From Escherichia coli (GTDB taxonomy: Bacteria; Pseudomonadota; Gammaproteobacteria; Enterobacterales; Enterobacteriaceae), in assembly GCF_003018235.1 (NCBI RefSeq), contig NZ_CP027437.1: a stretch of 64,000 nt of DNA; one strand, written 5' to 3'. Positions 4,382 through 46,337 of this stretch are shown here, one piece after another. Each line of letters starts with the position of its first letter. Position 1 is the stretch's first letter. The notes below the pieces were generated by a model, which searched no databases, was not told where the DNA came from, and was given only the letters and a program-made list of their open reading frames with translations. The position numbers and the translations under genes are program-made.

Positions 4382-5794
4382 ATGTCACTCAGTCGGCGTC
4401 AGTTCATTCAGGCATCGGGGATTGCACTTTGTGCAGGCGCTGTTCCCCTGAAGGCCAGCGGAGCCGGGCAACAGCAACCGCTACCCGTTCCGCCGCTGCT
4501 TGAATCTCGCCGTGGGCAACCGCTGTTTATGACTGTACAACGTGCGCACTGGTCATTTACGCCAGGGACACGCGCGTCGGTTTGGGGAATCAATGGTCGT
4601 TACCTGGGGCCGACTATCCGCGTCTGGAAGGGCGACGATGTTAAGCTTATTTACAGCAACCGCCTGACAGAAAATGTCTCAATGACGGTGGCCGGGCTAC
4701 AGGTACCTGGCCCGCTGATGGGCGGTCCGGCACGCATGATGTCGCCAAACGCTGACTGGGCACCCGTACTGCCTATTCGCCAGAACGCAGCTACTCTGTG
4801 GTATCACGCCAATACTCCCAACCGCACGGCTCAGCAGGTCTATAACGGCCTTGCCGGAATGTGGCTGGTGGAAGATGAAGTCAGCAAGTCGCTGCCTATC
4901 CCCAACCATTATGGTGTGGATGATTTTCCGGTCATTATCCAGGATAAACGGCTGGACAACTTTGGTACGCCAGAATACAACGAACCGGGAAGCGGCGGCT
5001 TTGTTGGTGACACACTGCTGGTTAACGGTGTACAAAGCCCGTACGTTGAAGTCTCGCGTGGCTGGGTGCGCTTGCGTCTGTTGAACGCGTCGAACTCTCG
5101 ACGCTATCAACTACAGATGAGCGATGGTCGCCCGTTACATGTGATTTCTGGCGATCAGGGATTCCTGCCCGCTCCTGTATCGGTGAAGCAACTTTCGCTA
5201 GCACCGGGCGAGCGTCGTGAGATTCTGGTGGATATGAGCAACGGTGATGAAGTGTCGATCACCTGTGGCGAAGCGGCGAGCATTGTTGATCGTATTCGTG
5301 GCTTCTTTGAGCCATCCAGCATTCTGGTTTCTACGCTGGTGCTAACGCTGCGCCCAACCGGCCTTCTGCCGCTGGTCACAGACAGTCTTCCGATGCGCTT
5401 GCTGCCAACTGAAATCATGGCTGGTTCGCCGATTCGCAGTCGTGATATCAGTCTGGGTGATGACCCGGGTATTAATGGACAACTGTGGGACGTTAACCGT
5501 ATTGATGTCACCGCGCAGCAAGGAACGTGGGAACGCTGGACGGTACGCGCGGACGAGCCGCAAGCGTTCCATATTGAAGGCGTGATGTTCCAGATCCGTA
5601 ACGTGAATGGCGCGATGCCGTTCCCGGAGGACAGAGGCTGGAAAGATACCGTTTGGGTTGACGGACAAGTGGAGCTGCTGGTTTATTTCGGTCAGCCTTC
5701 CTGGGCGCACTTCCCGTTCTACTTCAACAGTCAGACGCTGGAAATGGCGGACCGTGGCTCGATAGGGCAACTGTTGGTCAATCCGGTACCGTAA
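4382..5794 (+). CDS. ftsP: Cell division protein FtsP (SufI), multicopper-oxidase fold, Tat-exported
   Basis: 470-aa ORF; twin-arginine signal MSLSRRQFIQASG; synteny after plsC. Confidence 0.9.
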   Translation: MSLSRRQFIQASGIALCAGAVPLKASGAGQQQPLPVPPLLESRRGQPLFMTVQRAHWSFTPGTRASVWGINGRYLGPTIRVWKGDDVKLIYSNRLTENVSMTVAGLQVPGPLMGGPARMMSPNADWAPVLPIRQNAATLWYHANTPNRTAQQVYNGLAGMWLVEDEVSKSLPIPNHYGVDDFPVIIQDKRLDNFGTPEYNEPGSGGFVGDTLLVNGVQSPYVEVSRGWVRLRLLNASNSRRYQLQMSDGRPLHVISGDQGFLPAPVSVKQLSLAPGERREILVDMSNGDEVSITCGEAASIVDRIRGFFEPSSILVSTLVLTLRPTGLLPLVTDSLPMRLLPTEIMAGSPIRSRDISLGDDPGINGQLWDVNRIDVTAQQGTWERWTVRADEPQAFHIEGVMFQIRNVNGAMPFPEDRGWKDTVWVDGQVELLVYFGQPSWAHFPFYFNSQTLEMADRGSIGQLLVNPVP

Positions 5795-29681: not shown

Positions 29682-31541
29682 ATGAGCAAAGGAACGACCA
29701 GCCAGGATGCCCCGTTCGGGACATTATTGGGCTACGCCCCAGGTGGGGTAGCAATCTACTCTTCAGATTACAGTTCTCTCGATCCGCAGGAATACGAAGA
29801 TGACGCCGTATTCCGTAGCTATATCGACGACGAATATATGGGCCACAAATGGCAATGCGTTGAATTTGCTCGCCGTTTTCTCTTTCTGAATTACGGTGTG
29901 GTCTTCACTGACGTGGGTATGGCGTGGGAGATTTTCTCGCTGCGCTTCCTGCGTGAAGTGGTTAATGACAACATCCTGCCATTGCAGGCATTTCCTAATG
30001 GCTCGCCGCGTGCACCGGTCGCGGGCGCGCTTCTTATCTGGGATAAAGGCGGTGAATTTAAAGACACTGGCCATGTCGCCATCATTACCCAATTGCATGG
30101 CAACAAAGTCCGTATTGCGGAACAGAACGTGATTCATTCCCCGTTACCGCAAGGGCAACAGTGGACACGCGAGCTGGAGATGGTGGTCGAAAACGGCTGC
30201 TATACCCTTAAAGACACGTTTGATGACACCACCATTCTCGGCTGGATGATCCAGACGGAAGATACTGAATACAGCTTACCGCAGCCGGAAATTGCAGGCG
30301 AGCTGCTGAAAATCAGCGGAGCGCGCCTGGAAAACAAAGGTCAGTTTGACGGTAAATGGCTGGATGAAAAAGATCCGCTACAAAACGCCTATGTGCAGGC
30401 CAACGGTCAGGTGATCAATCAGGATCCGTATCATTACTACACCATTACCGAGAGTGCCGAGCAGGAGCTGATTAAAGCCACCAACGAGCTGCACCTGATG
30501 TATCTTCACGCCACCGACAAGGTGCTGAAAGATGACAACCTGCTGGCGCTGTTCGACATCCCAAAAATCCTCTGGCCACGTTTGCGTCTCTCCTGGCAGC
30601 GTCGCCGTCACCATATGATCACCGGTCGTATGGATTTCTGTATGGACGAACGTGGCCTGAAGGTCTACGAATACAACGCCGATTCCGCCTCCTGTCATAC
30701 CGAAGCGGGCTTGATCCTCGAACGTTGGGCGGAGCAGGGCTATAAAGGCAACGGCTTCAATCCGGCGGAAGGGCTGATTAACGAACTGGCTGGTGCCTGG
30801 AAACACAGTCGTGCACGTCCGTTTGTCCATATCATGCAGGACAAAGATATCGAGGAAAACTATCACGCGCAGTTTATGGAGCAGGCGCTGCACCAGGCGG
30901 GCTTTGAAACGCGTATCTTGCGCGGGCTGGATGAACTGGGCTGGGATGCTGCCGGGCAACTGATTGATGGGGAAGGGCGACTGGTTAACTGCGTGTGGAA
31001 AACCTGGGCGTGGGAAACCGCGTTTGATCAGATTCGTGAAGTTAGCGACCGTGAGTTTGCTGCGGTGCCGATCCGTACCGGTCATCCGCAAAATGAAGTG
31101 CGTCTTATCGACGTATTGCTGCGCCCGGAAGTGCTGGTCTTTGAACCTCTGTGGACAGTGATCCCCGGCAACAAAGCGATTCTGCCGATCCTCTGGTCGC
31201 TGTTCCCGCACCATCGTTACCTGCTGGATACCGATTTCACTGTTAATGATGAACTGGTAAAAACAGGTTACGCAGTGAAACCGATCGCCGGTCGCTGTGG
31301 CAGTAACATCGACCTCGTCAGCCATCATGAAGAGGTGCTGGACAAAACCAGCGGTAAATTTGCCGAGCAGAAAAACATCTATCAGCAACTGTGGTGTTTG
31401 CCGAAAGTGGACGGTAAATACATTCAGGTATGTACCTTCACCGTTGGCGGCAACTACGGTGGGACGTGTTTGCGCGGTGATGAATCACTGGTCATTAAAA
31501 AAGAGAGTGATATTGAACCGTTAATTGTGGTGAAAGAGTAA
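29682..31541 (+). CDS. gss: Bifunctional glutathionylspermidine synthetase/amidase
   Basis: 619 aa; N-terminal CHAP amidase and C-terminal ATP-grasp synthetase; MSKGTTSQDAPFGTLLGY. Confidence 0.9.
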   Translation: MSKGTTSQDAPFGTLLGYAPGGVAIYSSDYSSLDPQEYEDDAVFRSYIDDEYMGHKWQCVEFARRFLFLNYGVVFTDVGMAWEIFSLRFLREVVNDNILPLQAFPNGSPRAPVAGALLIWDKGGEFKDTGHVAIITQLHGNKVRIAEQNVIHSPLPQGQQWTRELEMVVENGCYTLKDTFDDTTILGWMIQTEDTEYSLPQPEIAGELLKISGARLENKGQFDGKWLDEKDPLQNAYVQANGQVINQDPYHYYTITESAEQELIKATNELHLMYLHATDKVLKDDNLLALFDIPKILWPRLRLSWQRRRHHMITGRMDFCMDERGLKVYEYNADSASCHTEAGLILERWAEQGYKGNGFNPAEGLINELAGAWKHSRARPFVHIMQDKDIEENYHAQFMEQALHQAGFETRILRGLDELGWDAAGQLIDGEGRLVNCVWKTWAWETAFDQIREVSDREFAAVPIRTGHPQNEVRLIDVLLRPEVLVFEPLWTVIPGNKAILPILWSLFPHHRYLLDTDFTVNDELVKTGYAVKPIAGRCGSNIDLVSHHEEVLDKTSGKFAEQKNIYQQLWCLPKVDGKYIQVCTFTVGGNYGGTCLRGDESLVIKKESDIEPLIVVKE

Positions 31542-31556
31542 TACATGTTGTAGCAA

Positions 31557-31591
31557 CCCTGCACTGATTATGAAGAATAATCAGTGCAGGG
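31557..31591 (+). terminator. Perfect 15-bp-stem hairpin after gss (ccctgcactgattat-gaaga-ataatcagtgcaggg)
   Basis: Read directly; no U-tract follows, so it may be a terminator or an RNA-stability element. Confidence 0.5.
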
Positions 31592-31832
31592 ATTAATCAA
31601 AATATTCAATATTTATATATTCCAATATTTATTCATTTCATATGTGAATGTATTAACCAGTGGAATACCTGTGTTTTGATTATTTCTAAAGGTTTTGAAT
31701 GAATGCTTATTATCTGATACACAAGAAATAACACTCTTTTTATCGTTAAAAAATGATATTTCACTTTGCCCACGCCGTTAAAGTCACTGATAATGCGTCC
31801 GTTCGTAAATTCAAAATGGCGTAATCTAATAT

Positions 31833-33332
31833 ATGCTAAATTTATTTGTTGGCCTTGATATATACACAGGGTTTTTGTTATTACTTGCTCTGGCATTTGT
31901 GTTGTTCTACGAAGCAATCAATGGTTTTCATGACACGGCGAATGCGGTGGCAACCGTTATTTATACTCGTGCCATGCAGCCACAGCTTGCCGTGGTGATG
32001 GCGGCATTTTTTAACTTTTTTGGCGTATTGCTAGGCGGACTTAGCGTTGCCTATGCCATTGTCCATATGTTGCCAACCGATTTGTTGCTGAATATGGGGT
32101 CAACTCACGGCCTGGCGATGGTCTTTTCCATGCTGCTGGCGGCGATTATCTGGAACCTGGGAACGTGGTTCTTTGGTTTACCGGCCTCCAGTTCGCATAC
32201 CTTGATTGGTGCGATTATCGGCATCGGTTTAACCAACGCGCTGTTAACCGGCTCATCGGTGATGGATGCGTTAAACCTGCGTGAAGTGACCAAAATTTTC
32301 TCCTCGCTGATTGTTTCCCCTATCGTCGGCCTGGTCATTGCGGGAGGCCTGATATTCCTGCTGCGCCGCTACTGGAGCGGGACGAAAAAGCGTGACCGTA
32401 TTCACCGCATTCCGGAAGATCGCAAAAAGAAAAAAGGCAAACGTAAGCCACCATTCTGGACGCGTATTGCGCTGATTGTTTCCGCTGCGGGCGTGGCGTT
32501 TTCGCACGGCGCGAACGACGGGCAGAAAGGGATCGGCCTGGTGATGCTGGTACTGGTGGGGATTGCCCCTGCTGGTTTCGTCGTCAATATGAATGCGTCC
32601 GGCTATGAAATTACCCGTACCCGCGATGCCGTCACCAACTTTGAACACTATCTGCAACAGCATCCTGAACTGCCGCAGAAGTTGATTGCGATGGAACCTC
32701 CATTGCCTGCGGCATCGACTGATGGCACGCAAGTAACGGAGTTTCACTGTCATCCGGCAAATACCTTTGATGCGATTGCGCGCGTTAAAACGATGCTGCC
32801 AGGCAATATGGAAAGTTACGAGCCGTTAAGCGTGAGTCAGCGCAGCCAGCTGCGCCGCATTATGCTGTGCATCTCTGATACCTCCGCGAAGCTGGCGAAA
32901 CTGCCAGGCGTCAGTAAAGAAGACCAGAACCTGCTGAAAAAACTGCGCAGCGATATGTTAAGCACCATTGAGTACGCTCCGGTGTGGATCATCATGGCAG
33001 TAGCTCTGGCGCTCGGCATTGGCACCATGATTGGCTGGCGTCGTGTAGCGATGACCATCGGTGAGAAGATTGGTAAGCGCGGCATGACGTATGCGCAAGG
33101 CATGGCGGCACAAATGACGGCGGCAGTGTCTATCGGCCTTGCCAGTTATATTGGGATGCCCGTCTCCACAACACACGTCCTCTCGTCTGCGGTAGCAGGG
33201 ACGATGGTGGTGGACGGCGGTGGGTTACAGCGTAAAACGGTAACCAGCATCCTGATGGCGTGGGTGTTTACTTTACCGGCGGCGATTTTTCTTTCTGGTG
33301 GGTTGTACTGGATAGCATTGCAGTTGATTTAA
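31833..33332 (+). CDS. pitB: Low-affinity inorganic phosphate transporter
   Basis: 499-aa hydrophobic ORF of the PiT family; synteny. Confidence 0.9.
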
Positions 33333-33380: not shown

Positions 33381-34073
33381 CTAGTGATACCCACGCGCGG
33401 TCATAAAATCCGTAATCGCTTTTTCTGCATCAACCAGTACCTTTTCCAGTGGCTGATTGGCGTCGATATCAACCAGTTGTGCACCACCAAAGGTTAACTG
33501 TGGCGTTATGGCTATCTTTCTTGCCAGCGATTCCCTTTTGTGGTCAGGCTTACGCGCGCAGGCCACGTCTAGATCGACATTGAGTTTGATGACCAGATCA
33601 GGTTTATGGCTCGCCATCCAGTGAAACGCTTTACGTTCCTGGCTTGCCAGCCATGAGACAAAACGACCACCTTCAATGTTAGGTGGGAACACTGTACCAT
33701 CGTAAGCGCCAGGAATTTGGTCCTGAGGATAACGGTCGGTTAGAACAATTAACCCGCGACGACGACAGGCAAGCATATGACGAAAGCGCAGTAAGCGACG
33801 GGCGACAAACGCTGTAATTACCAGCGCCGGAACAGGGCCAGGCAATTTTTTTGCTGTTTTCACCTGATTTCGTTCAATTGTTTTATGTAAGGATTTTCCC
33901 ATCAACGGTAATTTTGTCACTGCACGACCGACATTTCCGGCCTGTTTTCCTAAATGAACTCTTTCGGCTGCACCATATTTTTCGACAACGGTAATGAGAT
34001 GTTCACACACCGTTGACTTGCCTGAACCATCGCTACCAATAACGGCAATTAATGGAGGTGTTATTGACTGCAT
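33381..34073 (-). CDS. yghT: P-loop NTPase, kinase-like; paralogue of YghS and YghR
   Basis: 230-aa ORF; Walker [10 protein letters not shown]; shared C-terminal motif RKPDH with YghS/YghR. Confidence 0.8.
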
Positions 34074-34246
34074 GAATATATCCTTTAATTTAAATATCCA
34101 TTAAAAATATTTATTTGGTTAATATGTTTTTATGAAAGCGTAATTCAGGTCAATGTCACAATTAACCATTGTCACAATAAGGTTGAACGGATATTCTGAG
34201 CACGGACCACGTAATATTCAATACATTATTTGCTGCCGGGTTTTTC

Positions 34247-35748: not shown

Positions 35749-35793
35749 GGCAGGCGGGATACTTTTTACTATCAACGATAAGGTCAGGCTGAA

Positions 35794-37143
35794 TTGGCGG
35801 GTTTTAACATCAAACATTGGTTTGCAGATGGCGCGTTTCGCACCATTATTCGCAATAGCGCCTGGTTAGGCTCCAGTAATGTCGTGAGCGCCTTGCTGGG
35901 TCTGTTGGCGCTCTCGTGTGCCGGTAAAGGGATGACGCCCGCCATGTTTGGCGTACTGGTGATTGTGCAATCGTACGCCAAGTCGATCAGCGATTTTATT
36001 AAGTTTCAGACATGGCAGCTGGTGGTTCAGTACGGAACGCCAGCCTTGACCAACAATAATCCGCAGCAATTTCGCAATGTTGTCTCATTTTCCTTCTCGC
36101 TGGATATCGTCAGCGGCGCGGTGGCGATTGTCGGCGGCATTGCCTTACTGCCATTCCTTTCCCATTCATTAGGTCTGGATGACCAAAGCTTTTGGCTGGC
36201 GGCGCTCTATTGCACGCTCATTCCTTCAATGGCTTCCTCCACGCCGACCGGCATTCTGCGTGCGGTAGATCGCTTTGATTTGATTGCTGTACAGCAGGCG
36301 ACGAAACCTTTTCTGCGCGCAGCGGGGAGCGTCGTAGCCTGGTATTTTGACTTTGGTTTTGCGGGTTTTGTTATTGCCTGGTACGTGTCGAATCTGGTTG
36401 GCGGCACCATGTACTGGTGGTTTGCCGCGCGCGAATTACGCCGCAGAAATATCCATAACACCTTCAAATTGAATCTGTTTGAGTCTGCCCGACACATTAA
36501 AGGCGCGTGGAGTTTTGTCTGGTCAACCAACATTGCCCACTCCATCTGGTCGGCACGTAACTCGTGCAGCACAGTGCTGGTGGGGATCGTGTTAGGACCC
36601 GCTGCCGCCGGGTTATTTAAAATCGCCATGACATTCTTCGACGCCGCCGGAACGCCAGCGGGTTTACTGGGTAAAAGTTTTTACCCAGAGGTGATGCGTT
36701 TAGATCCGCGCACCACCAGACCGTGGTTGTTAGGCGTGAAGTCCGGTTTACTGGCGGGCGGAATCGGTATTCTGGTGGCGCTCGCGGTGTTGATCGTCGG
36801 CAAGCCGCTCATTTCGCTGGTGTTTGGCGTTAAGTATCTCGAAGCGTATGACCTGATTCAGGTGATGCTGGGCGCAATTGTGATTTCGATGCTGGGCTTC
36901 CCACAGGAGTCATTGCTATTGATGGCGGGAAAACAGCGCGCTTTTCTCGTGGCGCAAACCATCGCCTCAATCGGCTACATCGTATTGCTGTTCATGTTCT
37001 GTCATCTGTTTGGCGTGCTGGGGGCTGCATTTGCTTACTTCGCTGGGCAATGTCTGGATGTGGTGTTCTCGCTAATTCCAACCTTAAAGGCATTTTTTCA
37101 GCGCCATTCCTTGCTTTATAACGCAGCCGGAGAGAAATCCTGA
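35794..37143 (+). CDS. yghQ: Multi-pass membrane protein of the MOP/Wzx-like flippase superfamily; start codon uncertain
   Basis: 449-aa ORF (maximal), highly hydrophobic; K-12 annotation is shorter, to my recollection. Confidence 0.7.
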   Translation: MAGFNIKHWFADGAFRTIIRNSAWLGSSNVVSALLGLLALSCAGKGMTPAMFGVLVIVQSYAKSISDFIKFQTWQLVVQYGTPALTNNNPQQFRNVVSFSFSLDIVSGAVAIVGGIALLPFLSHSLGLDDQSFWLAALYCTLIPSMASSTPTGILRAVDRFDLIAVQQATKPFLRAAGSVVAWYFDFGFAGFVIAWYVSNLVGGTMYWWFAARELRRRNIHNTFKLNLFESARHIKGAWSFVWSTNIAHSIWSARNSCSTVLVGIVLGPAAAGLFKIAMTFFDAAGTPAGLLGKSFYPEVMRLDPRTTRPWLLGVKSGLLAGGIGILVALAVLIVGKPLISLVFGVKYLEAYDLIQVMLGAIVISMLGFPQESLLLMAGKQRAFLVAQTIASIGYIVLLFMFCHLFGVLGAAFAYFAGQCLDVVFSLIPTLKAFFQRHSLLYNAAGEKS

Positions 37144-37967
37144 TGATGAGAAAATATTTCCCGCTTGAGGCTAGCGAGCGTCTATTTGTTGCGATTGAAG
37201 AAGATGATGTCGTTGATGCACAGGTCAGTTTGCCGCCGACTATCGCACTAAGTTGTACCACCGAAATCATCCATGATAATTACGCGTTATGCCTGAAATT
37301 CTGGCTGGATGGTGTTAATCGTCAGGAGCTACTGCGTTTAATCCGCAAACAGGCGAAAGGCGATGAGCTGACGACAGACGAGCGCAAAAAGTATAAATAC
37401 ATGCGAGCGCGCTACAAGCATCTGCGCTTTGCGCAACGGCTGTATTTAAAGAAGCATCAGGCCGGATTTTTATTCGGCAAAACGACCGTTTTTTTGGGGC
37501 GTTTTCAGGACGGCTTTCGTAACGGTAAGAAAAATATTGTGTCGTATTACGGCAACCTGTTACGGGTTTATTTAAGCTCTCCGGTCTGGTCGTTGGTGAA
37601 CTATTCATTACGCCATAGCCAGTTAGAAAGCGTAAGCGGTTTTATTGCCTATCGGCAAAAGCAAATGCATACCCTGAAAGAGATAATTGCCAAACCGCGA
37701 CTAACTGGCAGGGAATTTCATGATGTGCGAAAAATCATCAGCCAGCAGGTTTCTTATTACGACACCCTAAGATCGCTTGATCCTGAAAATAAAGAGGCGT
37801 TACAGATTTCCCGCTTCCTCGCCGCCATTAATGGCCTGATGGGGGATAAACACGACGACATGGTGGCGGATGATATGGAAAACCGCCAGTCGTATGATGC
37901 ACCGGTGGCGCTGGATAGCGATATTCGCCAGCGCTTAGAGCTGCTGATTTCGCGTTTTCCGCTATAA
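37143..37967 (+). CDS. Hypothetical protein, 274 aa, no recognisable domain
   Basis: Start overlaps the yghQ stop (TGATG); charged, non-membrane. Confidence 0.55.
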   Translation: MMRKYFPLEASERLFVAIEEDDVVDAQVSLPPTIALSCTTEIIHDNYALCLKFWLDGVNRQELLRLIRKQAKGDELTTDERKKYKYMRARYKHLRFAQRLYLKKHQAGFLFGKTTVFLGRFQDGFRNGKKNIVSYYGNLLRVYLSSPVWSLVNYSLRHSQLESVSGFIAYRQKQMHTLKEIIAKPRLTGREFHDVRKIISQQVSYYDTLRSLDPENKEALQISRFLAAINGLMGDKHDDMVADDMENRQSYDAPVALDSDIRQRLELLISRFPL

Positions 37968-37975
37968 CCGGAGCA

Positions 37976-38539
37976 ATGATGTCATCTCGTTTGATTATTG
38001 CGCTGATTATCATGCTCTTAGCCCCGGGTGTGCAGGCACACAATTTCGTCACTGGCAAAACGGTTACCCCTGTTTATATCCAGGAAGGCGGCGAGCTGCT
38101 TCTGAATAGCGACGACGAAATTCACTACCAAAAGTGGAACAGCACACAGCTGGCGGGAAAAGTTCGCATTATTCAGTATATCGCCGGGCGTAAGTCGGCG
38201 AAGAAAAAGAACTCACTGTTAATTAAAGCGGTTGAAGCGGCAAACTTTCCGCAGGATCGTTTTCAGCCCACCACCATTGTGAACACCGATGATGCCATTT
38301 TTGGTACTGGCTATTTTGTCGTTGGCAAAATCGAAAAAAATAAACGCCGCTATCCGTGGGCGCAATTCGTTATTGACGGCAATGGACAGGGACGCGTTGC
38401 CTGGCGGTTGCCGGAGCAGAGTTCAACCATTCTGGTGCTGAATAAAGCCGGGCAAATTCAGTGGGCAAAGGACGGCAGCCTGACGCCGGAAGAGGTAGAA
38501 CATGTCATTGCGCTGGCGCAGAAACTGATCAATGAATAA
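37976..38539 (+). CDS. YtfJ-family periplasmic protein
   Basis: 187-aa ORF; signal peptide MMSSRLIIALIIMLLAPGVQA; conserved TTIVNTDDAI and WAKDGSLTPEEV blocks recalled from E. coli YtfJ. Confidence 0.55.
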   Translation: MMSSRLIIALIIMLLAPGVQAHNFVTGKTVTPVYIQEGGELLLNSDDEIHYQKWNSTQLAGKVRIIQYIAGRKSAKKKNSLLIKAVEAANFPQDRFQPTTIVNTDDAIFGTGYFVVGKIEKNKRRYPWAQFVIDGNGQGRVAWRLPEQSSTILVLNKAGQIQWAKDGSLTPEEVEHVIALAQKLINE

Positions 38540-38569
38540 AAAATTCAAAGGATTGAGGGCGTTAGTGAG

Positions 38570-39640
38570 ATGAAGCTGGTTGAACACTACATCATGCGTG
38601 GTACGCGCCGTCTGGTGCTGATTATCGTCGGTTTTCTGATCTTTATTTTCGCCAGCTACTCCGCACAGCGTTATCTGACCGAAGCGGCAAATGGGACATT
38701 AGCTCTTGATGTTGTGCTGGATATTGTTTTCTACAAGGTGCTGATTGCACTGGAGATGTTGTTACCTGTTGGACTGTATGTGTCAGTTGGCGTGACGCTA
38801 GGGCAGATGTATACCGACTCGGAAATTACCGCTATTTCTGCGGCGGGGGGCAGTCCGGGACGCTTGTACAAAGCCGTTCTTTATCTGGCGATACCGCTAA
38901 GTATTTTTGTCACCCTTCTGTCGATGTATGGTCGTCCGTGGGCTTATGCGCAGATTTATCAACTGGAGCAACAGTCACAGTCGGAGCTGGATGTTCGCCA
39001 GTTGCGGGCAAAGAAATTTAACACTAACGATAACGGACGAATGATCCTTTCGCAGACGGTTGATCAGGATAATAATCGCCTGACTGACGCGCTGATTTAT
39101 ACTTCTACTGCCAATCGAACCCGCATTTTCCGCGCCCGTTCGGTTGATGTGGTTGACCCATCACCTGAGAAACCGACCGTTATGTTGCATAACGGGACCG
39201 CCTATCTTCTCGATCATCAGGGGCGTGACGACAACGAACAGATCTACCGTAATCTGCAATTACATCTGAATCCGCTGGATCAAAGCCCTAACGTCAAACG
39301 CAAAGCAAAATCGGTCACGGAGCTGGCGCGCTCCGCCTTTCCTGCCGATCATGCCGAACTGCAATGGCGACAAAGCCGTGGCCTGACAGCATTGTTGATG
39401 GCGCTGCTGGCCATTTCATTAAGTCGGGTAAAACCGCGGCAAGGGCGATTTTCAACGTTATTGCCACTGACGTTGCTGTTTATTGCCATTTTTTATGGCG
39501 GCGACGTCTGCCGTACGCTGGTGGCTAACGGCGCGATTCCCCTCATTCCTGGTTTGTGGTTAGTACCCGGACTCATGCTAATGGGCCTGCTGATGCTGGT
39601 CGCACGCGACTTCTCATTGCTGCAGAAATTTTCCCGATGA
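38570..39640 (+). CDS. LptF-like permease (YjgP/YjgQ family)
   Basis: 356-aa ORF; N-terminal TM helices, periplasmic beta-jellyroll-like insert, C-terminal TM helices. Confidence 0.65.
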   Translation: MKLVEHYIMRGTRRLVLIIVGFLIFIFASYSAQRYLTEAANGTLALDVVLDIVFYKVLIALEMLLPVGLYVSVGVTLGQMYTDSEITAISAAGGSPGRLYKAVLYLAIPLSIFVTLLSMYGRPWAYAQIYQLEQQSQSELDVRQLRAKKFNTNDNGRMILSQTVDQDNNRLTDALIYTSTANRTRIFRARSVDVVDPSPEKPTVMLHNGTAYLLDHQGRDDNEQIYRNLQLHLNPLDQSPNVKRKAKSVTELARSAFPADHAELQWRQSRGLTALLMALLAISLSRVKPRQGRFSTLLPLTLLFIAIFYGGDVCRTLVANGAIPLIPGLWLVPGLMLMGLLMLVARDFSLLQKFSR

Positions 39641-40716
39641 ATGTTTTCAGTCGCTATTTAATCCGTCATCTCTTTCTCGGTTTTGCCGCCGCCGCAGGGC
39701 TATTGCTGCCGCTTTTTACCACCTTCAACCTGATTAACGAACTGGATGATGTCAGCCCGGGCGGTTATCGCTGGACTCAGGCGGTGCTGGTGGTGCTGAT
39801 GACCTTACCGCGTACACTGGTCGAACTTTCGCCGTTTATCGCATTATTGGGAGGGATTGTTGGCCTGGGGCAGTTATCGAAAAACAGTGAGCTTACCGCC
39901 ATTCGCAGCACGGGGTTTTCTATCTTCCGTATTGCACTAGTGGCGCTGGTTGCCGGGATATTGTGGACTGTTTCGTTAGGCGCGATAGATGAGTGGGTGG
40001 CGTCGCCATTGCAGCAACAGGCGCTGCAAATCAAATCGACTGCCACCGCGTTGGGGGAGGACGATGACATTACCGGCAATATGCTTTGGGCCAGGCGCGG
40101 TAATGAATTTGTGACGGTGAAATCGCTGAACGAGCAGGGCCAGCCTGTGGGCGTGGAGATATTTCATTATCGCGACGATCTCTCGCTCGAATCCTACATT
40201 TTTGCACGCAGTGCCTCCATTGAAGACGACAAAACATGGATCCTGCATGGTGTGAATCATAAAAAATGGTTGAATGGCAAGGAAACGCTGGAAACATCAG
40301 ATAATCTTGCCTGGCAATCGGCCTTCACCAGTATGAATCTTGAAGAGTTATCGATGCCGGGAAATACTTTTTCTGTCCGTCAACTTAATCATTACATCCA
40401 TTATTTGCAGGAAACTGGGCAACCCAGCAGCGAATACCGCCTTGCACTGTGGGAAAAACTGGGACAACCCATCCTGACCCTGGCGATGATTTTGCTGGCT
40501 GTGCCGTTTACCTTTAGTGCCCCGCGTTCGCCTGGGATGGGTAGCCGTCTCGCTGTAGGCGTCATCGTGGGCTTACTTACCTGGATCAGCTATCAAATCA
40601 TGGTCAATCTGGGATTGCTATTTGCGTTGAGCGCACCTGTTACCGCGCTCGGTTTACCGGTAGCGTTTGTGCTGGTGGCGTTGAGCCTGGTGTATTGGTA
40701 TGACAGACAACATTAA
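39637..40716 (+). CDS. LptG-like permease (YjgP/YjgQ family), paired with the upstream gene
   Basis: 359 aa from ATG at 39637 (MNVFSRYLIRHLF), overlapping the upstream stop (ATGA). Confidence 0.65.
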   Translation: MNVFSRYLIRHLFLGFAAAAGLLLPLFTTFNLINELDDVSPGGYRWTQAVLVVLMTLPRTLVELSPFIALLGGIVGLGQLSKNSELTAIRSTGFSIFRIALVALVAGILWTVSLGAIDEWVASPLQQQALQIKSTATALGEDDDITGNMLWARRGNEFVTVKSLNEQGQPVGVEIFHYRDDLSLESYIFARSASIEDDKTWILHGVNHKKWLNGKETLETSDNLAWQSAFTSMNLEELSMPGNTFSVRQLNHYIHYLQETGQPSSEYRLALWEKLGQPILTLAMILLAVPFTFSAPRSPGMGSRLAVGVIVGLLTWISYQIMVNLGLLFALSAPVTALGLPVAFVLVALSLVYWYDRQH

Positions 40717-42202: not shown

Positions 42203-43117
42203 TCAAAATAGCCCGTTGCGTAATGCGTGTTCCAGGCTAATCCCGGGAAACCAATTAATATCTTCAGAAATACGGTTATTACTTGCCGACCAGTCGGCAT
42301 GAGTTAATTCACGGATTTTCGAACGAGTCAGCATCGGTTCTTTACCCGCCAGACGGCTCAACGCGGTACTGATATCCGCAAGGCAGGTGAGTAGCGGCAG
42401 AGGAATACCGACCATCCGCACGGAACCGCAACGGGCGTCGGCGGCAAGCTGTCTTACGCGTTGCCAGTCATAGCCTCCGGCGACGCCATCGCATAATTCA
42501 TAGGTTTGCGTCTGTACAGTTTCGGCGCTTAACCACTGACCCACTGCTTGCGCAAAATCGGTGACGTGAAGAAAAGAGAGCTGTGTCTCTGGCGTGCCAA
42601 GTCGTGGCAGCAGGCCGCGCAGCATCCAGTCAAACAGCGGTTTTAACTCTTTATCGCCGGGACCATACACGGCTGTCGGGCGAAAAACGCCCAGCGTAAT
42701 TTCATCAGCCATTGCAGTCAGCCGTTGTTCGGCGACGTGTTTGGAATTTGCGTACCAGGAGAGTTCGGGATGGCGCGCCGCCAGCGAAGAGATAAACAGA
42801 AAACGTTGGCAAAAGCCGCTCTCTTTTGCCGCTTGCATCAGGCGCAGGCTGCCGTCAACGTTACAGCGGGTAAAAATCTCTTCTTTGTGTCCGCGCACTT
42901 GTCCGGCGCAATGGACCACCGCGCTGGCTCCGGCAACCAGTTCGCTAAGCGAATGTGTATCTTCCAGCGAACCGCGCACCCAGATGAGATTATCATTGAC
43001 GTGAGCGCGGGCAGTACGCGTCAATGCGCGAACGTGAAAGCCGCGGGCGAGCAGGTTATCGATAATATATTTACCGATAAACCCGGTAGCGCCCGTCACC
43101 GCGACAGTTTGATTCAT
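42203..43117 (-). CDS. NAD(P)-dependent epimerase/dehydratase-fold reductase (extended SDR)
   Basis: 304-aa ORF; Rossmann motif GATGFIG; catalytic YANSK (YxxxK). Confidence 0.7.
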   Translation of the reverse strand: MNQTVAVTGATGFIGKYIIDNLLARGFHVRALTRTARAHVNDNLIWVRGSLEDTHSLSELVAGASAVVHCAGQVRGHKEEIFTRCNVDGSLRLMQAAKESGFCQRFLFISSLAARHPELSWYANSKHVAEQRLTAMADEITLGVFRPTAVYGPGDKELKPLFDWMLRGLLPRLGTPETQLSFLHVTDFAQAVGQWLSAETVQTQTYELCDGVAGGYDWQRVRQLAADARCGSVRMVGIPLPLLTCLADISTALSRLAGKEPMLTRSKIRELTHADWSASNNRISEDINWFPGISLEHALRNGLF

Positions 43118-44850
43118 GCCAGGGATTCCTGCACATGAAGGCTTGCAGCATAACGTTTTTTCGCTTCCGCACGGGCAGGCTTGCCGGAGGACGTTCGGGG
43201 AATACTGTGGGGCGGCAACAGATCGATAGCCGCTGTTACGCCAAATTCGCTTTGGATCCGTGCTACCAGTGCGTGGATAAGCTGCCCACGACGTTCTTCG
43301 TCGCTGATCCTACACTGGATCTGCAGAATGATTTTTTCCTGGGCGGTAACAAAAGCAATCGCATCGCCAGAATGAATTTCCGGTTCCTGTTCCGCAATAT
43401 ATTCAATATCCTGCGGCCAGATATTACGGCCACGAATAATAATCAGATCTTTAATGCGTCCGGTGACATACAGATAACCGTCCAGCAGATAACCGAGGTC
43501 GCCGGTGTCTAACCAGCCCGTCGCGGCAATCTCGTCTTGTGAAATCTGGTCGCCAAAGTAACCGCTCATCAGGCTAGGGCCGGAGATGCAAATATGGCCT
43601 ACCACACGTTCCGCGACAGGTATACCTGCTTCATTGCGGATTTCAATGCCATGTTCCGGCAACGCTTTACCGCAGTTGACGAAAGTCGATACGGCGCGTG
43701 TTTCAGCATCCGGCGCGACGGCTTTGCCCTGATATTCGAGGATGTCGCGATCCACTTCGTTAACCACAACCCCGGAAGCTTCATCAGAGAAGCTGACAGC
43801 CAGCGCATTTTCTGCCAGTCCGTAGCACGGCATGAAAGTTTTATCGTCAAAGTTGACCTGACGGAAACATTCAGCGAATTGATGGAGTTGTTCTGCGGAG
43901 ATGGGTTCTGCACCAATACCAGCGACGCGCCAGCAGGAAAGATCCAGTTCAGCGAGATCTTTTTCATTCACGCGGCGCTGGCACAATTCATAGCCAAACG
44001 GCGGCGCAACGGAAACGGTGCCGCGATTTTTACTGATCAATTTAAGCCATTGCAGAGGACGCATGGCAAAATCCTGAGTGCGCAAATAATCTACTGAAAG
44101 CTGCGTGGCGACGGGGGGCAGGAGAAAGCCGACCAGTCCCATATCATGGTAGAAAGGCAGCCAGGAGACGCAGCGGTCGCCAGGGCGTAATTTAATGCCA
44201 TCGTGGCTTATAGCACGTAGATTAGCCATCACTTCGCGATGGGTGATAATGACGCCACGGGGAAAACGGGTGCTGCCGGAGGTGTACTGGAGGTAGGCGA
44301 TATCGTTCGGAACTGGACGCTGGAGCGCAACATCGGCTTCCGGTAATGCCTTAAACCAGGCGTGGCTTAAAACATGTAATTCGGGGTTGTTATGCGTAGC
44401 GGCATTGACCAGTGGCAACCACTCATCACCAGTGATAATGGCTGCGGGCTGGCAACTTGCCAGTAAACCCTGCAGTTTGGCGCTCCAGGAATCCCGCTGA
44501 CCGACGCCCATTGGAATCGCCAACGGGACGGCGACTAAGCCGGCATACTGGCAGGAAAAAAAAGCCTCTACGAACCCGCTACTGGTTTCGGCAATCAGCG
44601 CCACGCGATCGCCTTTTTTCAGGTTCAGCGATAACAACCGCTTCGCACCAGCTTCGGCACGCGCTTTTAACGTCTGATATTCCAGTTGATCTTCAAGTTG
44701 GCAACGTCTGTCATAAAAATTCATTCCGGCGCTACTCAGAGCGGCGTAGTCCAAAGCATCAACCAGCGTTGGAAAATCGGCATAGCGCATAGGTAGGGAA
44801 TGCGTAAAGATTTTATTAGACATATACACCACGAAAAAATTGGATATCAA
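43114..44850 (-). CDS. Adenylate-forming acyl-AMP ligase / acyl-ACP synthetase-like enzyme; start uncertain
   Basis: 578-aa ORF; AMP-binding motif YTSGSTRFPRG; 4-nt overlap with the downstream reductase gene. Confidence 0.7.
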   Translation of the reverse strand: MISNFFVVYMSNKIFTHSLPMRYADFPTLVDALDYAALSSAGMNFYDRRCQLEDQLEYQTLKARAEAGAKRLLSLNLKKGDRVALIAETSSGFVEAFFSCQYAGLVAVPLAIPMGVGQRDSWSAKLQGLLASCQPAAIITGDEWLPLVNAATHNNPELHVLSHAWFKALPEADVALQRPVPNDIAYLQYTSGSTRFPRGVIITHREVMANLRAISHDGIKLRPGDRCVSWLPFYHDMGLVGFLLPPVATQLSVDYLRTQDFAMRPLQWLKLISKNRGTVSVAPPFGYELCQRRVNEKDLAELDLSCWRVAGIGAEPISAEQLHQFAECFRQVNFDDKTFMPCYGLAENALAVSFSDEASGVVVNEVDRDILEYQGKAVAPDAETRAVSTFVNCGKALPEHGIEIRNEAGIPVAERVVGHICISGPSLMSGYFGDQISQDEIAATGWLDTGDLGYLLDGYLYVTGRIKDLIIIRGRNIWPQDIEYIAEQEPEIHSGDAIAFVTAQEKIILQIQCRISDEERRGQLIHALVARIQSEFGVTAAIDLLPPHSIPRTSSGKPARAEAKKRYAASLHVQESLA

Positions 44851-45194
44851 AAATAAAATGACAATAATGCGGTGGATTATATAGGCATAAAAGATAAATG
44901 AGATAGTATTTTCATCAGTGTGAAAATGAACATTGATTTAAATAATGAGTTTGAGTTTTTTTGTTTTTATTGTGAATGATATTTAATTTATGAATGTATT
45001 AAGAAGAAGCCTTGTCCGGTCGCCTTAAATCGACAAAAGGCATTGTGGCGCTTCTGTGTAGTCTCTGACCTTATCGTAATCATTAATAAATGCTATTTAT
45101 TCGTCGTTTGTATTCATTGGGTTGATTATTAAGGTGCCGTTCGTTGCTGTTGCAACCTGTTTGTCACCGTTAATTATTTGTTACCCACAGAACT

Positions 45195-46337
45195 ATGGAA
45201 TGCGATCTGCTGATGATTAAAATTGAAAAAGTAATTAATAAAAATGACCTTAAGGCATTTATCGCTTTTCCGTCATCACTTTATCCCGACGATCCAAACT
45301 GGATACCCCCTTTATTCATTGAACGCAACGAGCATTTGTCTGCGAAAAATCCGGGGACGGACCATATCATCTGGCAGGCGTGGGTGGCAAAAAAAGCCGG
45401 GCAGATAGTTGGGCGAATTACCGCGCAAATCGATACCTTGCACCGTGAGCGTTACGGTGAAGATACCGGTCATTTCGGCATGATTGACGCCATTGATGAT
45501 CCGCAGGTTTTTGCCGCGTTGTTTGGCGCAGCGGAAGCGTGGTTGAAGTCACAAGGAGCAAGTAAGATCAGCGGGCCTTTCAGCCTGAATATCAATCAGG
45601 AAAGCGGATTACTGATTGAAGGTTTCGATACACCACCCTGTGCGATGATGCCGCACGGTAAACCGTGGTATGCCGCGCATATTGAACAATTGGGTTATCA
45701 CAAAGGCATTGATTTACTGGCGTGGTGGATGCAGCGAACCGATCTCACTTTCTCTCCGGCGCTAAAAAAACTGATGGATCAGGTGCGTAAGAAGGTGACC
45801 ATTCGCTGCATCAATCGCCAGCGGTTTGCCGAAGAGATGCAGATCCTGCGTGAGATTTTCAACTCTGGCTGGCAGCACAACTGGGGATTTGTGCCGTTTA
45901 CCGAACATGAATTCGCGACCATGGGCGATCAACTTAAATATCTGGTGCCGGACGATATGATCTACATCGCTGAGATTGATTCTGCACCCTGCGCGTTTAT
46001 TGTCGGCTTGCCAAACATCAACGAGGCGATTGCCGATCTGAACGGATCGCTCTTTCCCTTCGGCTGGGCAAAATTGCTGTGGCGTTTAAAAGTCAGCGGT
46101 GTGCGAACTGCGCGAGTACCGCTGATGGGCGTGCGGGACGAGTATCAGTTTAGCCGCATCGGCCCGGTGATTGCGCTGTTATTGATTGAAGCCTTACGCG
46201 ATCCGTTTGCCCGCCGGAAGATCGATGCGCTGGAAATGTCATGGATCCTCGAAACCAATACAGGCATGAATAACATGCTGGAACGCATTGGGGCGGAGCC
46301 GTACAAGCGTTACCGATTGTATGAAAAGCAGATTTAA
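45195..46337 (+). CDS. yghO: GNAT-fold acyltransferase-like protein, intact
   Basis: 380-aa ORF, divergent from the lipid operon across an AT-rich region; GNAT assignment is from recollection of this family, not a motif scan. Confidence 0.6.
   Translation: MECDLLMIKIEKVINKNDLKAFIAFPSSLYPDDPNWIPPLFIERNEHLSAKNPGTDHIIWQAWVAKKAGQIVGRITAQIDTLHRERYGEDTGHFGMIDAIDDPQVFAALFGAAEAWLKSQGASKISGPFSLNINQESGLLIEGFDTPPCAMMPHGKPWYAAHIEQLGYHKGIDLLAWWMQRTDLTFSPALKKLMDQVRKKVTIRCINRQRFAEEMQILREIFNSGWQHNWGFVPFTEHEFATMGDQLKYLVPDDMIYIAEIDSAPCAFIVGLPNINEAIADLNGSLFPFGWAKLLWRLKVSGVRTARVPLMGVRDEYQFSRIGPVIALLLIEALRDPFARRKIDALEMSWILETNTGMNNMLERIGAEPYKRYRLYEKQI

What the first reader, a model, noticed from the sequence alone, without database searches (positions are those of the whole stretch)
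44851..45194. AT-rich divergent control region between the lipid operon and yghO
This roughly 340-bp region is strongly AT-rich, with runs such as aaaaataaaatgacaataat and tttttttgtttttattgtgaatgatatttaatttatg, unlike the flanking coding GC. It separates two divergent transcription units of the island. AT-rich curved DNA of this kind is typical of H-NS-silenced loci, which would explain why the pathway product has not been seen in standard cultures.
Basis: inference. Interest (0 to 1): 0.35.

Follow-up and report, generated by a model that had tools for sequence, protein, structure and literature searches.

The report
AT-rich promoter region of ceramide genes
This is the A+T-rich stretch between two back-to-back transcription units of E. 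coli's dormant ceramide (sphingolipid) pathway; it almost certainly holds their promoters, part of it is strongly conserved, and silencing by the nucleoid protein H-NS is plausible but unproven.

Summary
Window 44824-45194 (371 bp) is the gap between aasR (minus strand, first gene of aasR-cerR/epi-acpR-spt) and yghO (plus strand, ceramide-synthase-like acyltransferase). GC is 32% overall, 24% in the aasR-proximal half and 40% in the yghO half, against 52% for the window. Fewer than 1% of equal-sized windows are as AT-rich.

Predicted curvature is no higher than in composition-matched shuffles. The published H-NS nucleation motif is not enriched. The flanking genes have normal GC, and the cluster sits at this locus in about 77% of complete E. 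coli genomes and in other Escherichia lineages, so it is not a classical AT-rich foreign island.

An experimentally proven H-NS/StpA target in the same window, the sslE promoter, has the same size and composition, so H-NS binding remains plausible.

New here: the AT-rich DNA is a mosaic. A 117-bp block next to aasR is about five times less variable than synonymous sites. It contains a perfect TATAAT with a poor -35. A central 70 bp is hypervariable.

Published BL21(DE3) work shows no chromosomal Spt activity in LB, which fits a silent operon. This is an ordinary control region with unknown regulators. No H-NS data exist for it.

The parts
44824..45194 (.). Intergenic control region between aasR and yghO (371 bp, GC 0.32)
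   Evidence: The RefSeq annotation of the identical strain ST2747 sets the boundaries.
44765..45320 (.). Full AT-rich tract in which 100-bp GC stays below 0.35 (556 bp, GC 0.336, 9.0 TpA steps per 100 bp against 4.4 for the window)
43114..44823 (-). aasR (fatty acyl-AMP ligase / acyl-AcpR synthetase), first gene of aasR-cerR(epi)-acpR-spt
   Evidence: AMP-binding, E 1.9e-57. PMC9386255 names the BL21 ortholog ECD_02851. The start at 44823 is supported by the conserved N-terminus. A GTG at 44832 aligns with the ATG used in Citrobacter and Pseudocitrobacter.
45195..46337 (+). yghO (aca / ceramide-synthase-like N-acyltransferase)
   Evidence: PMC9386255 lists yghO ECD_02850 as the homolog of CC_1154. 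Orthologs in other genera start at the ATG that aligns with 45213, so the gap may extend to 45212.
44824..44940 (-). Conserved block A: the predicted aasR 5' UTR, core promoter and about 60 bp upstream. Mean pairwise difference is 0.036, with 9 variable sites in 117.
   Evidence: Fisher test against third codon positions of aasR and yghO (319 of 880 variable) gives p = 1e-11.
44876..44881 (-). Perfect -10 hexamer TATAAT for aasR, with a predicted transcription start near 44869
   Evidence: TATAAT is also present at the aligned place in Hafnia, and TATAAC in Pseudocitrobacter. No mapped transcription start is available.
44899..44904 (-). Poor -35 (ATCTCA, 3 of 6), 17 bp upstream of the -10
   Evidence: combined score 8.8 bits.
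44840..44868 (+). Promoter-like TTGGAT-17-AATAAT pointing towards yghO, about 320 bp upstream of it and overlapping the aasR leader. Significance unknown.
   Evidence: (top score, 9.3 bits). It is invariant among the nine Escherichia sequences aligned; BL21/C41(DE3) carries A to C at 44849, in its spacer.
44966..45005 (.). Conserved block B (mean pairwise difference 0.085)
45006..45075 (.). Hypervariable, GC-richer centre (mean pairwise difference 0.44). It comes in two haplotype classes and is single-copy in each genome.
45074..45098 (.). Block C (TCGTAATCATTAATAAATGCTATTT), the only yghO-side block that still aligns with Pseudocitrobacter
45150..45177 (+). Weak candidate yghO promoter TTGCAA-16-AATTAT (predicted start near 45184). 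The -35 lies in a 7-bp indel in some Escherichia lineages.
   Evidence: 7.2 bits.

Best explanation
The region is the shared control region of the E. coli ceramide (sphingolipid) biosynthesis cluster.

The aasR-proximal half carries the promoter and about 46-nt leader of the aasR-cerR-acpR-spt operon. The promoter has a perfect TATAAT at 44881-44876, a poor -35, and a predicted start near 44869. Roughly 60 bp of conserved upstream sequence probably serves as an operator or UP-like element.

The yghO-proximal half carries one or more weak yghO promoters. Between the two halves lies a fast-evolving spacer.

Because the -35 is poor and the translation-start signals are weak, I infer that the operon needs an activator or a specific signal. 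The 556-bp AT-rich tract is very likely also coated by H-NS/StpA, which would keep basal transcription low in laboratory media.

Shown here: composition, gene arrangement, the conservation pattern, and promoter-like elements.

Inferred: promoter usage, dependence on an activator, and any H-NS contribution.
For: - Divergent start codons flank the gap.
- The arrangement yghO <-> aasR-cerR-acpR-spt, with a gap more AT-rich than its flanks, recurs in about 40 loci spanning more than a dozen Enterobacterales genera and in Pseudomonas.
- Block 44824-44940 has a mean pairwise difference of 0.036, against 0.15-0.18 at third codon positions. The equally AT-rich neighbouring segment 44941-44965 reaches 0.35, so the low variation is selection and not composition (Fisher p = 1e-11).
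- The perfect -10 is retained in Hafnia and nearly so in Pseudocitrobacter.
- Promoter-like sites scoring 7 bits or more are about seven times denser in the gap than in the window overall, but none reaches 10 bits.
- The chromosomal pathway is not detectably active in BL21(DE3) in LB (PMC9386255), and the BL21-lineage gap is nearly identical to the window.
- The AT-rich tract matches the proven H-NS/StpA-bound sslE promoter in the same window in length and GC (PMC5012682).
Against: - No transcription start, ChIP or hns-mutant data exist for this DNA. Every promoter assignment is a consensus match in AT-rich sequence, where such matches are common (2 found against 2.2 expected).
- Curvature and the H-NS motif give no support.
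- PMC9386255 suggests that chromosomal ECD_02852 and yghO may convert 3-oxo-sphinganine in BL21. That would mean some basal expression.
- No candidate regulator was identified. No regulator gene is conserved next to the cluster across genera.
Confidence: 0.6

Rival explanations
1. The region is generic AT-rich, curved DNA that nucleates an H-NS filament, and H-NS silencing of a horizontally acquired island is the main reason the lipid is never seen.
For: - 76% A+T over 187 bp, within a 556-bp AT-rich tract.
- Same size and GC as the H-NS/StpA-repressed sslE promoter.
- The pathway is silent in BL21 in LB.
- Two independent IS-associated deletions end at the edges of the tract: IS5 at 45235 in K-12 and IS1 at about 44784 in EC0026B_C. 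IS5 is reported to prefer AT-rich, H-NS-bound DNA (PMC11677980).
Against: - Curvature does not exceed shuffles, and the nucleation motif is not enriched.
- The AT-rich tract is confined to the gap and about 60-125 bp of each gene. The coding DNA is 50-53% GC, so a filament has little AT-rich DNA to spread over.
- The cluster is ancestral to Escherichia rather than recently acquired.
- Its GC tracks the host genome in other genera, from 0.45 to 0.63.
- The strong conservation of block A implies specific sites.
Confidence: 0.3
2. H-NS plays no important role. The AT-richness is only what promoters, UP elements and leaders look like. The operon is off because a required activator or signal is absent in laboratory media, or because transcription and translation initiation signals are intrinsically weak.
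For: - Poor -35, and no promoter match of 10 bits or more.
- No good Shine-Dalgarno sequence at a proper distance from ATG 44823 or from either candidate yghO start.
- The leader can pair the start region with codons 8-15: MFE -13 kcal/mol, z = -1.9, with 8 of 200 shuffles folding as well.
- Conserved blocks A to D look like specific sites.
- Other genera have a different, nearly invariant box on the yghO side, which implies sequence-specific control in this gene family.
Against: A 556-bp tract at 33% GC in E. coli is the kind of DNA H-NS binds, as at sslE. No activator site was recognised.
Confidence: 0.3
3. The gap hides an unannotated small gene, a small RNA, a structured leader or a mobile-element scar.
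For: The gap is long (371 bp) and contains conserved blocks. The orthologous gaps in other genera are 475-1095 bp.
Against: - No Rfam match better than E = 2.4.
- A putative long yghO leader folds no better than shuffles, z = -0.29.
- No ORF is conserved in the long gaps, and indels disrupt the short E. coli ORFs.
- The centre is single-copy in each genome.
- The conserved element of other genera has no consensus RNA structure.
Confidence: 0.05

Closest known systems
sslE (yghJ) promoter region of E. coli, an H-NS/StpA-repressed, temperature-dependent promoter (Yang et al. 2007 as summarised in PMC5012682); it lies in this window at about 55752-56339
   Same: An AT-rich tract of nearly identical length and GC (588 bp at 0.32, against 556 bp at 0.34) in front of an envelope-related operon that K-12 has lost or degraded.
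   Different: For sslE, H-NS and StpA binding and derepression have been shown experimentally, and the region is predicted to be more curved (maximum 55 against 46 degrees per 31 bp; mean 22.8 against 17.3). Nothing has been measured for the aasR-yghO gap.
Rhodobacterial-type ceramide synthesis cluster: Caulobacter crescentus CC_1154 and CC_1162-CC_1165; E. coli BL21(DE3) ECD_02850-02854 (PMC9386255)
   Same: The flanking genes are these genes: spt, acpR, epi/cerR and aasR in one operon, with aca/yghO alongside.
   Different: That work characterised the enzymes. The control region and its regulation are not described in any paper I could find.
AT-rich divergent regulatory regions of core E. 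coli loci that are H-NS targets and also bind specific regulators, such as csgD-csgB, or the promoters of proU and bgl (from general knowledge, not tested here)
   Same: A long AT-rich gap between divergent units, many promoter-like sequences, low basal expression, and conserved specific sites embedded in AT-rich DNA.
   Different: Those regions have mapped promoters and known regulators. This one has neither.

Membership tests
H-NS-silenced locus | AT-rich tract of hundreds of bp, well below genome GC | tested here: met
   GC is 0.32 over 371 bp and 0.24 over 187 bp. The 556-bp tract is at 0.336 against a window mean of 0.516.
H-NS-silenced locus | Intrinsic DNA curvature above what composition alone gives | tested here: not met
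   Wedge-model calculation with parameters recalled from the literature. Mean curvature equals the window mean, and 47% of shuffles reach the peak value.
H-NS-silenced locus | High-affinity nucleation motif (TCGATAAATT-like) | tested here: not met
   One match with 2 mismatches, at 44985-44994. Across the window there are 71 matches against 63 expected.
H-NS-silenced locus | Xenogeneic signature: AT-rich coding DNA and recent acquisition | tested here: not met
   Coding GC is 0.50-0.53. The cluster is at the same locus in 77% of complete E. coli genomes and in four other Escherichia lineages.
H-NS-silenced locus | H-NS/StpA occupancy (ChIP, EMSA) and derepression in hns mutants | not testable with these tools
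   K-12 lacks this DNA. No dataset or paper was found.
Divergent sigma-70 promoter region | Lies between two divergently oriented first genes | tested here: met
   aasR is on the minus strand and yghO on the plus strand. The arrangement is conserved across genera.
Divergent sigma-70 promoter region | -10 and -35 elements at a suitable distance from each gene | tested here: inconclusive
   aasR side: perfect TATAAT with a 3-of-6 -35. yghO side: only weak matches. The generic scan found no more sites than in shuffles.
Divergent sigma-70 promoter region | Purifying selection on the non-coding sequence | tested here: met
   Block A has a mean pairwise difference of 0.036, against 0.15-0.18 at third codon positions (p = 1e-11).
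Divergent sigma-70 promoter region | Mapped transcription start sites | not testable with these tools
   The EDL933 supplementary tables held in the library are truncated and had no match.
Bacterial ceramide synthesis cluster (the flanking genes) | spt, a dedicated ACP, an acyl-ACP synthetase, an epimerase-family reductase and an N-acyltransferase | tested here: met
   Pfam hits: Aminotran_1_2, PP-binding, AMP-binding and Epimerase. yghO has no Pfam hit, but PMC9386255 assigns it as the aca homolog.

The most novel reading that the evidence does not exclude
The nearly invariant 117-bp AT-rich block (44824-44940) is a dedicated switch for a dormant ceramide pathway carried by about three quarters of E. 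coli strains. It would be an operator or anti-silencing site for an unidentified regulator, possibly combined with a leader that occludes the start codon. On this reading, Escherichia has replaced the control region built around the GCATT(A/T)AGTGGTAAAA box that most other Enterobacterales use on the yghO side. Finding the inducing signal would reveal when E. coli makes sphingolipids.
Probability: 0.25. Interest if true: 0.55.

Novelty: new member of a known kind. Interest (0 to 1): 0.25.

Why it matters
Most E. coli strains, including BL21, pathogens and commensals but not K-12, carry a complete bacterial ceramide pathway whose product has not been reported from normal cultures. This gap is where that pathway is switched on or off.

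The analysis narrows the search in three ways:
- a specific candidate aasR promoter;
- a 117-bp block under strong selection that can be mutated or used as bait for regulators;
- a clear statement that H-NS involvement is a reasonable but untested hypothesis, not something the sequence shows.

In itself the feature is ordinary: an AT-rich divergent promoter region.

Tried and rejected
- Curvature. A wedge model showed nothing beyond composition.
- H-NS nucleation motif. Not enriched.
- Known RNA families. Nothing in the window gap or in seven orthologous loci.
- RNA structure. The aasR leader is marginal (z = -1.9). A long yghO leader shows nothing (z = -0.29).
- Small ORFs. None is conserved in the long gaps of other genera.
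- Repeated or mobile element in the hypervariable centre. It is single-copy.
- Internal repeats. Only short AT-rich matches of the kind expected by chance.
- The conserved box of other Enterobacterales. Absent from the E. coli gap by profile search and by pattern search.
- A conserved neighbouring regulator gene. None found. The commonest neighbour downstream of yghO, in 10 loci, is a roughly 119-aa membrane protein that I judged by eye, without a database search, to resemble diacylglycerol kinase.
- By-eye comparison with CRP, FNR, Fur, PhoP/PhoB, FadR and sigma-E consensus sequences. Only partial matches, and several fall on positions that vary within Escherichia. I treat none as evidence.
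- Literature.
- Supplementary tables. Those of the O157 Sakai H-NS/Pch paper and of two EDL933 transcriptome and start-site papers were absent, truncated or without matches. Two 'silent' EDL933 genes, Z4320 and Z4327, could not be mapped to this locus, so I make no claim from them.

Full report
**What the window is.**
The window is E. coli and is 100% identical to strain ST2747 over the tested stretch. RefSeq annotation of that strain places the finding between a fatty acyl-AMP ligase gene on the minus strand and yghO on the plus strand.

The ligase gene heads a four-gene operon: ligase, NAD-dependent epimerase-family protein, acyl carrier protein, serine palmitoyltransferase. Pfam agrees for all four.

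Padilla-Gomez et al. 2022 (PMC9386255) studied the BL21(DE3) orthologs. They are aasR (ECD_02851), epi (ECD_02852), acpR (ECD_02853) and spt (ECD_02854). That paper lists yghO (ECD_02850) as the homolog of the Caulobacter N-acyltransferase needed for dihydroceramide. The 'lipid operon' is therefore the bacterial ceramide pathway, and the finding is its divergent control region.

**Checking the observation.**
- Boundaries. The annotated start is ATG 44823, or 44790 in some records. A conserved N-terminus, MSxxxxTHSLPM, in other genera supports 44823. The gap is therefore 44824-45194, 371 bp.
- Composition. GC is 0.32 overall against 0.516 for the window, and under 1% of equal-sized windows are as AT-rich.
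- Unevenness. GC is 0.24 for 44824-45010 and 0.40 for 45011-45194.
- Extent. The tract with 100-bp GC below 0.35 spans 44765-45320.
- Comparators. Tracts of similar size and GC in the window lie upstream of pitB and upstream of sslE, with a shorter one (about 210 bp) between yghT and yghS.

It is a feature of a kind that occurs several times in 64 kb.

**Testing 'curved, H-NS-type DNA'.**
- Curvature. I used a dinucleotide wedge model with parameters recalled from the literature. Mean curvature equals the window average. The one peak, at 44899, is matched by 47% of shuffles of the same bases, and the A/T tracts are not phased.
- Motif. The published 10-bp H-NS nucleation motif has a single 2-mismatch match in the gap and is not enriched in the window.
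- Coding DNA. The flanking genes are 50-53% GC.
- Distribution. The region is present in 4172 of 5426 complete E. coli genomes. It sits next to glcC in four other Escherichia lineages. K-12 lacks it because of an IS5-associated deletion from yghQ into codon 14 of yghO.
- Other genera. The cluster's GC follows the host genome, from 0.45 to 0.63.

This is not a recently acquired AT-rich island. What remains in favour of H-NS is AT-richness itself, which is the main determinant of H-NS binding. There is also a useful internal control. The sslE promoter tract in this same window has the same length and GC, and it is reported to bind H-NS and StpA and to be repressed by them (PMC5012682).

**What is new: the AT-rich DNA is a mosaic under selection.**
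I aligned six Escherichia lineages whose flanking genes differ at 15-18% of third codon positions.

| Segment | Mean pairwise difference |
|---|---|
| 44824-44940 (117 bp next to aasR) | 0.036 (9 variable sites) |
| 44941-44965 (equally AT-rich) | 0.35 |
| 44966-45005 | 0.085 |
| 45006-45075 (centre) | 0.44 |
| 45076-45100 | 0.16 |
| 45121-45150 | 0.12 |

The centre comes in two haplotype classes that do not follow strain names. The contrast between the 117-bp block and synonymous sites gives Fisher p = 1e-11.

The conserved block contains a perfect TATAAT on the aasR strand (44881-44876), 17 bp downstream of a poor -35 (ATCTCA). This predicts a start near 44869 and a leader of about 46 nt. 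The same hexamer is present in Hafnia, and TATAAC in Pseudocitrobacter.

On the yghO side only weak candidates exist, such as TTGCAA-16-AATTAT at 45150-45177, whose -35 falls in a 7-bp indel. A promoter-like TTGGAT-17-AATAAT on the plus strand at 44840-44868 is conserved, with no change in the nine Escherichia sequences aligned and one spacer substitution in BL21. Its role is unknown.

Promoter-like sequences are about seven times denser in the gap than elsewhere, but none is strong.

**Related loci.**
The divergent architecture is conserved in about 40 loci spanning more than a dozen Enterobacterales genera, and in Pseudomonas. The gaps range from 270 to 1095 bp and are always more AT-rich than their flanks.

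In 20 of these loci, from about a dozen genera, an almost invariant box, AAAGCATT(A/T)AGTGGTAAAA, lies 100-570 bp upstream of yghO. It reads like an extended -10 with an invariant spacer. It has no consensus RNA structure and no Rfam match. Escherichia, Pseudocitrobacter and C. youngae lack it. Sequence-specific control is therefore the rule in this gene family, and Escherichia has its own version.

**Is the pathway silent?**
In BL21(DE3), empty-vector cells show no 3-oxo-sphinganine and their extracts show no Spt activity. Expressing SptEc alone does not help. Plasmid-borne AasREc, AcpREc and SptEc are all required (PMC9386255). The BL21-lineage gap differs from the window by three substitutions and a 5-bp insertion.

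This fits an operon that is off in LB at 30 C. The authors do suggest that chromosomal epi and yghO may act on the product, which would imply some basal expression.

I found no data on H-NS, transcription starts or regulation at this locus.

**Mechanism I commit to (confidence 0.6).**
This is an ordinary, conserved divergent promoter and operator region. The aasR operon promoter has a good -10 but a weak -35, and its translation signals are weak. The start region can pair with codons 8-15, though the support is marginal (z = -1.9). I infer that it needs an activator or a signal. H-NS/StpA probably bind the AT-rich tract and lower basal transcription.

The pure H-NS-silencing reading and the no-H-NS reading each keep about 0.3. 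A hidden gene or RNA is unlikely (0.05).

**Verdict.**
The feature is a new member of a known kind and of modest interest. Its value lies in pointing to the exact DNA that should be tested to learn when E. coli makes ceramide.

Noticed in passing
Loci L011-L051, e.g. L011:3666-3682, L030:3728-3744, L026:3698-3714: An almost invariant box, AAAGCATT(A/T)AGTGGTAAAA, lies on the yghO strand 100-570 bp upstream of yghO in 20 loci from about a dozen Enterobacterales genera. It sits in a partly conserved stretch of about 150 nt. It has no Rfam match and no consensus RNA structure, and it is absent from Escherichia. It is probably a promoter plus operator for an unknown regulator.
   Followed up: partly
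window 45235 (K-12 junction; L006:2952-3932) and window ~44784 (L053:2288-2985): Two independent IS-associated deletions remove the ceramide cluster and end at the two edges of the AT-rich tract. One is IS5 in K-12, running from yghQ' to yghO codon 14. The other is IS1 in the laboratory-derived strain EC0026B_C, running from yghS' into the aasR 5' end. This is circumstantially in line with IS targeting of AT-rich or H-NS-bound DNA.
   Followed up: partly
window 55752-56339: The AT-rich tract upstream of sslE (588 bp, GC 0.32, highest predicted curvature of the AT-rich tracts compared) corresponds to the promoter reported to be repressed by H-NS and StpA in a temperature-dependent way. I used it here as a positive control.
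   Followed up: partly
window 31480-31936 and 34009-34218: Two further AT-rich tracts: one upstream of pitB and one between divergent yghT and yghS. The second heads the plus-strand operon yghS-yghR-yghQ-(hypothetical)-ytfJ-like-lptF-like-lptG-like, which converges on spt.
   Followed up: no
window 35782-40704: The genes that converge on spt encode a flippase-like YghQ, a YtfJ-family protein and paralogs of the LPS-export permeases LptF and LptG. This suggests a dedicated export route for the cluster's lipid, and most of it is deleted in K-12.
   Followed up: no
window 44790-44832 and 45195-45213: Start codons are uncertain. For aasR, RefSeq records use 44823 or 44790. A GTG at 44832 aligns with the ATG of Citrobacter and Pseudocitrobacter, and most other genera have a further upstream ATG with a GGTGA Shine-Dalgarno sequence. 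For yghO, orthologs begin at the ATG aligned with 45213, not at the annotated 45195. BL21-lineage strains carry a 5-bp ACAGA duplication just upstream, after 45186.
   Followed up: partly
window 45006-45075: The GC-richer centre of the gap exists in two very different haplotype classes. Strains named E. coli (88COLEC, SCPM-O-B-8794) share one class with a cryptic-clade Escherichia, which suggests recombination across lineages. Both versions can form a short hairpin, but in different registers.
   Followed up: partly
Loci L015, L016, L022, L024, L029, L039, L041, L043, L044, L049, about 5170-5740: In 10 non-Escherichia loci the gene just downstream of yghO encodes a membrane protein of about 119 aa. 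By eye, without a database search, it resembles diacylglycerol kinase, so it could be a lipid kinase acting on the ceramide. E. coli has glcC at that position instead.
   Followed up: no
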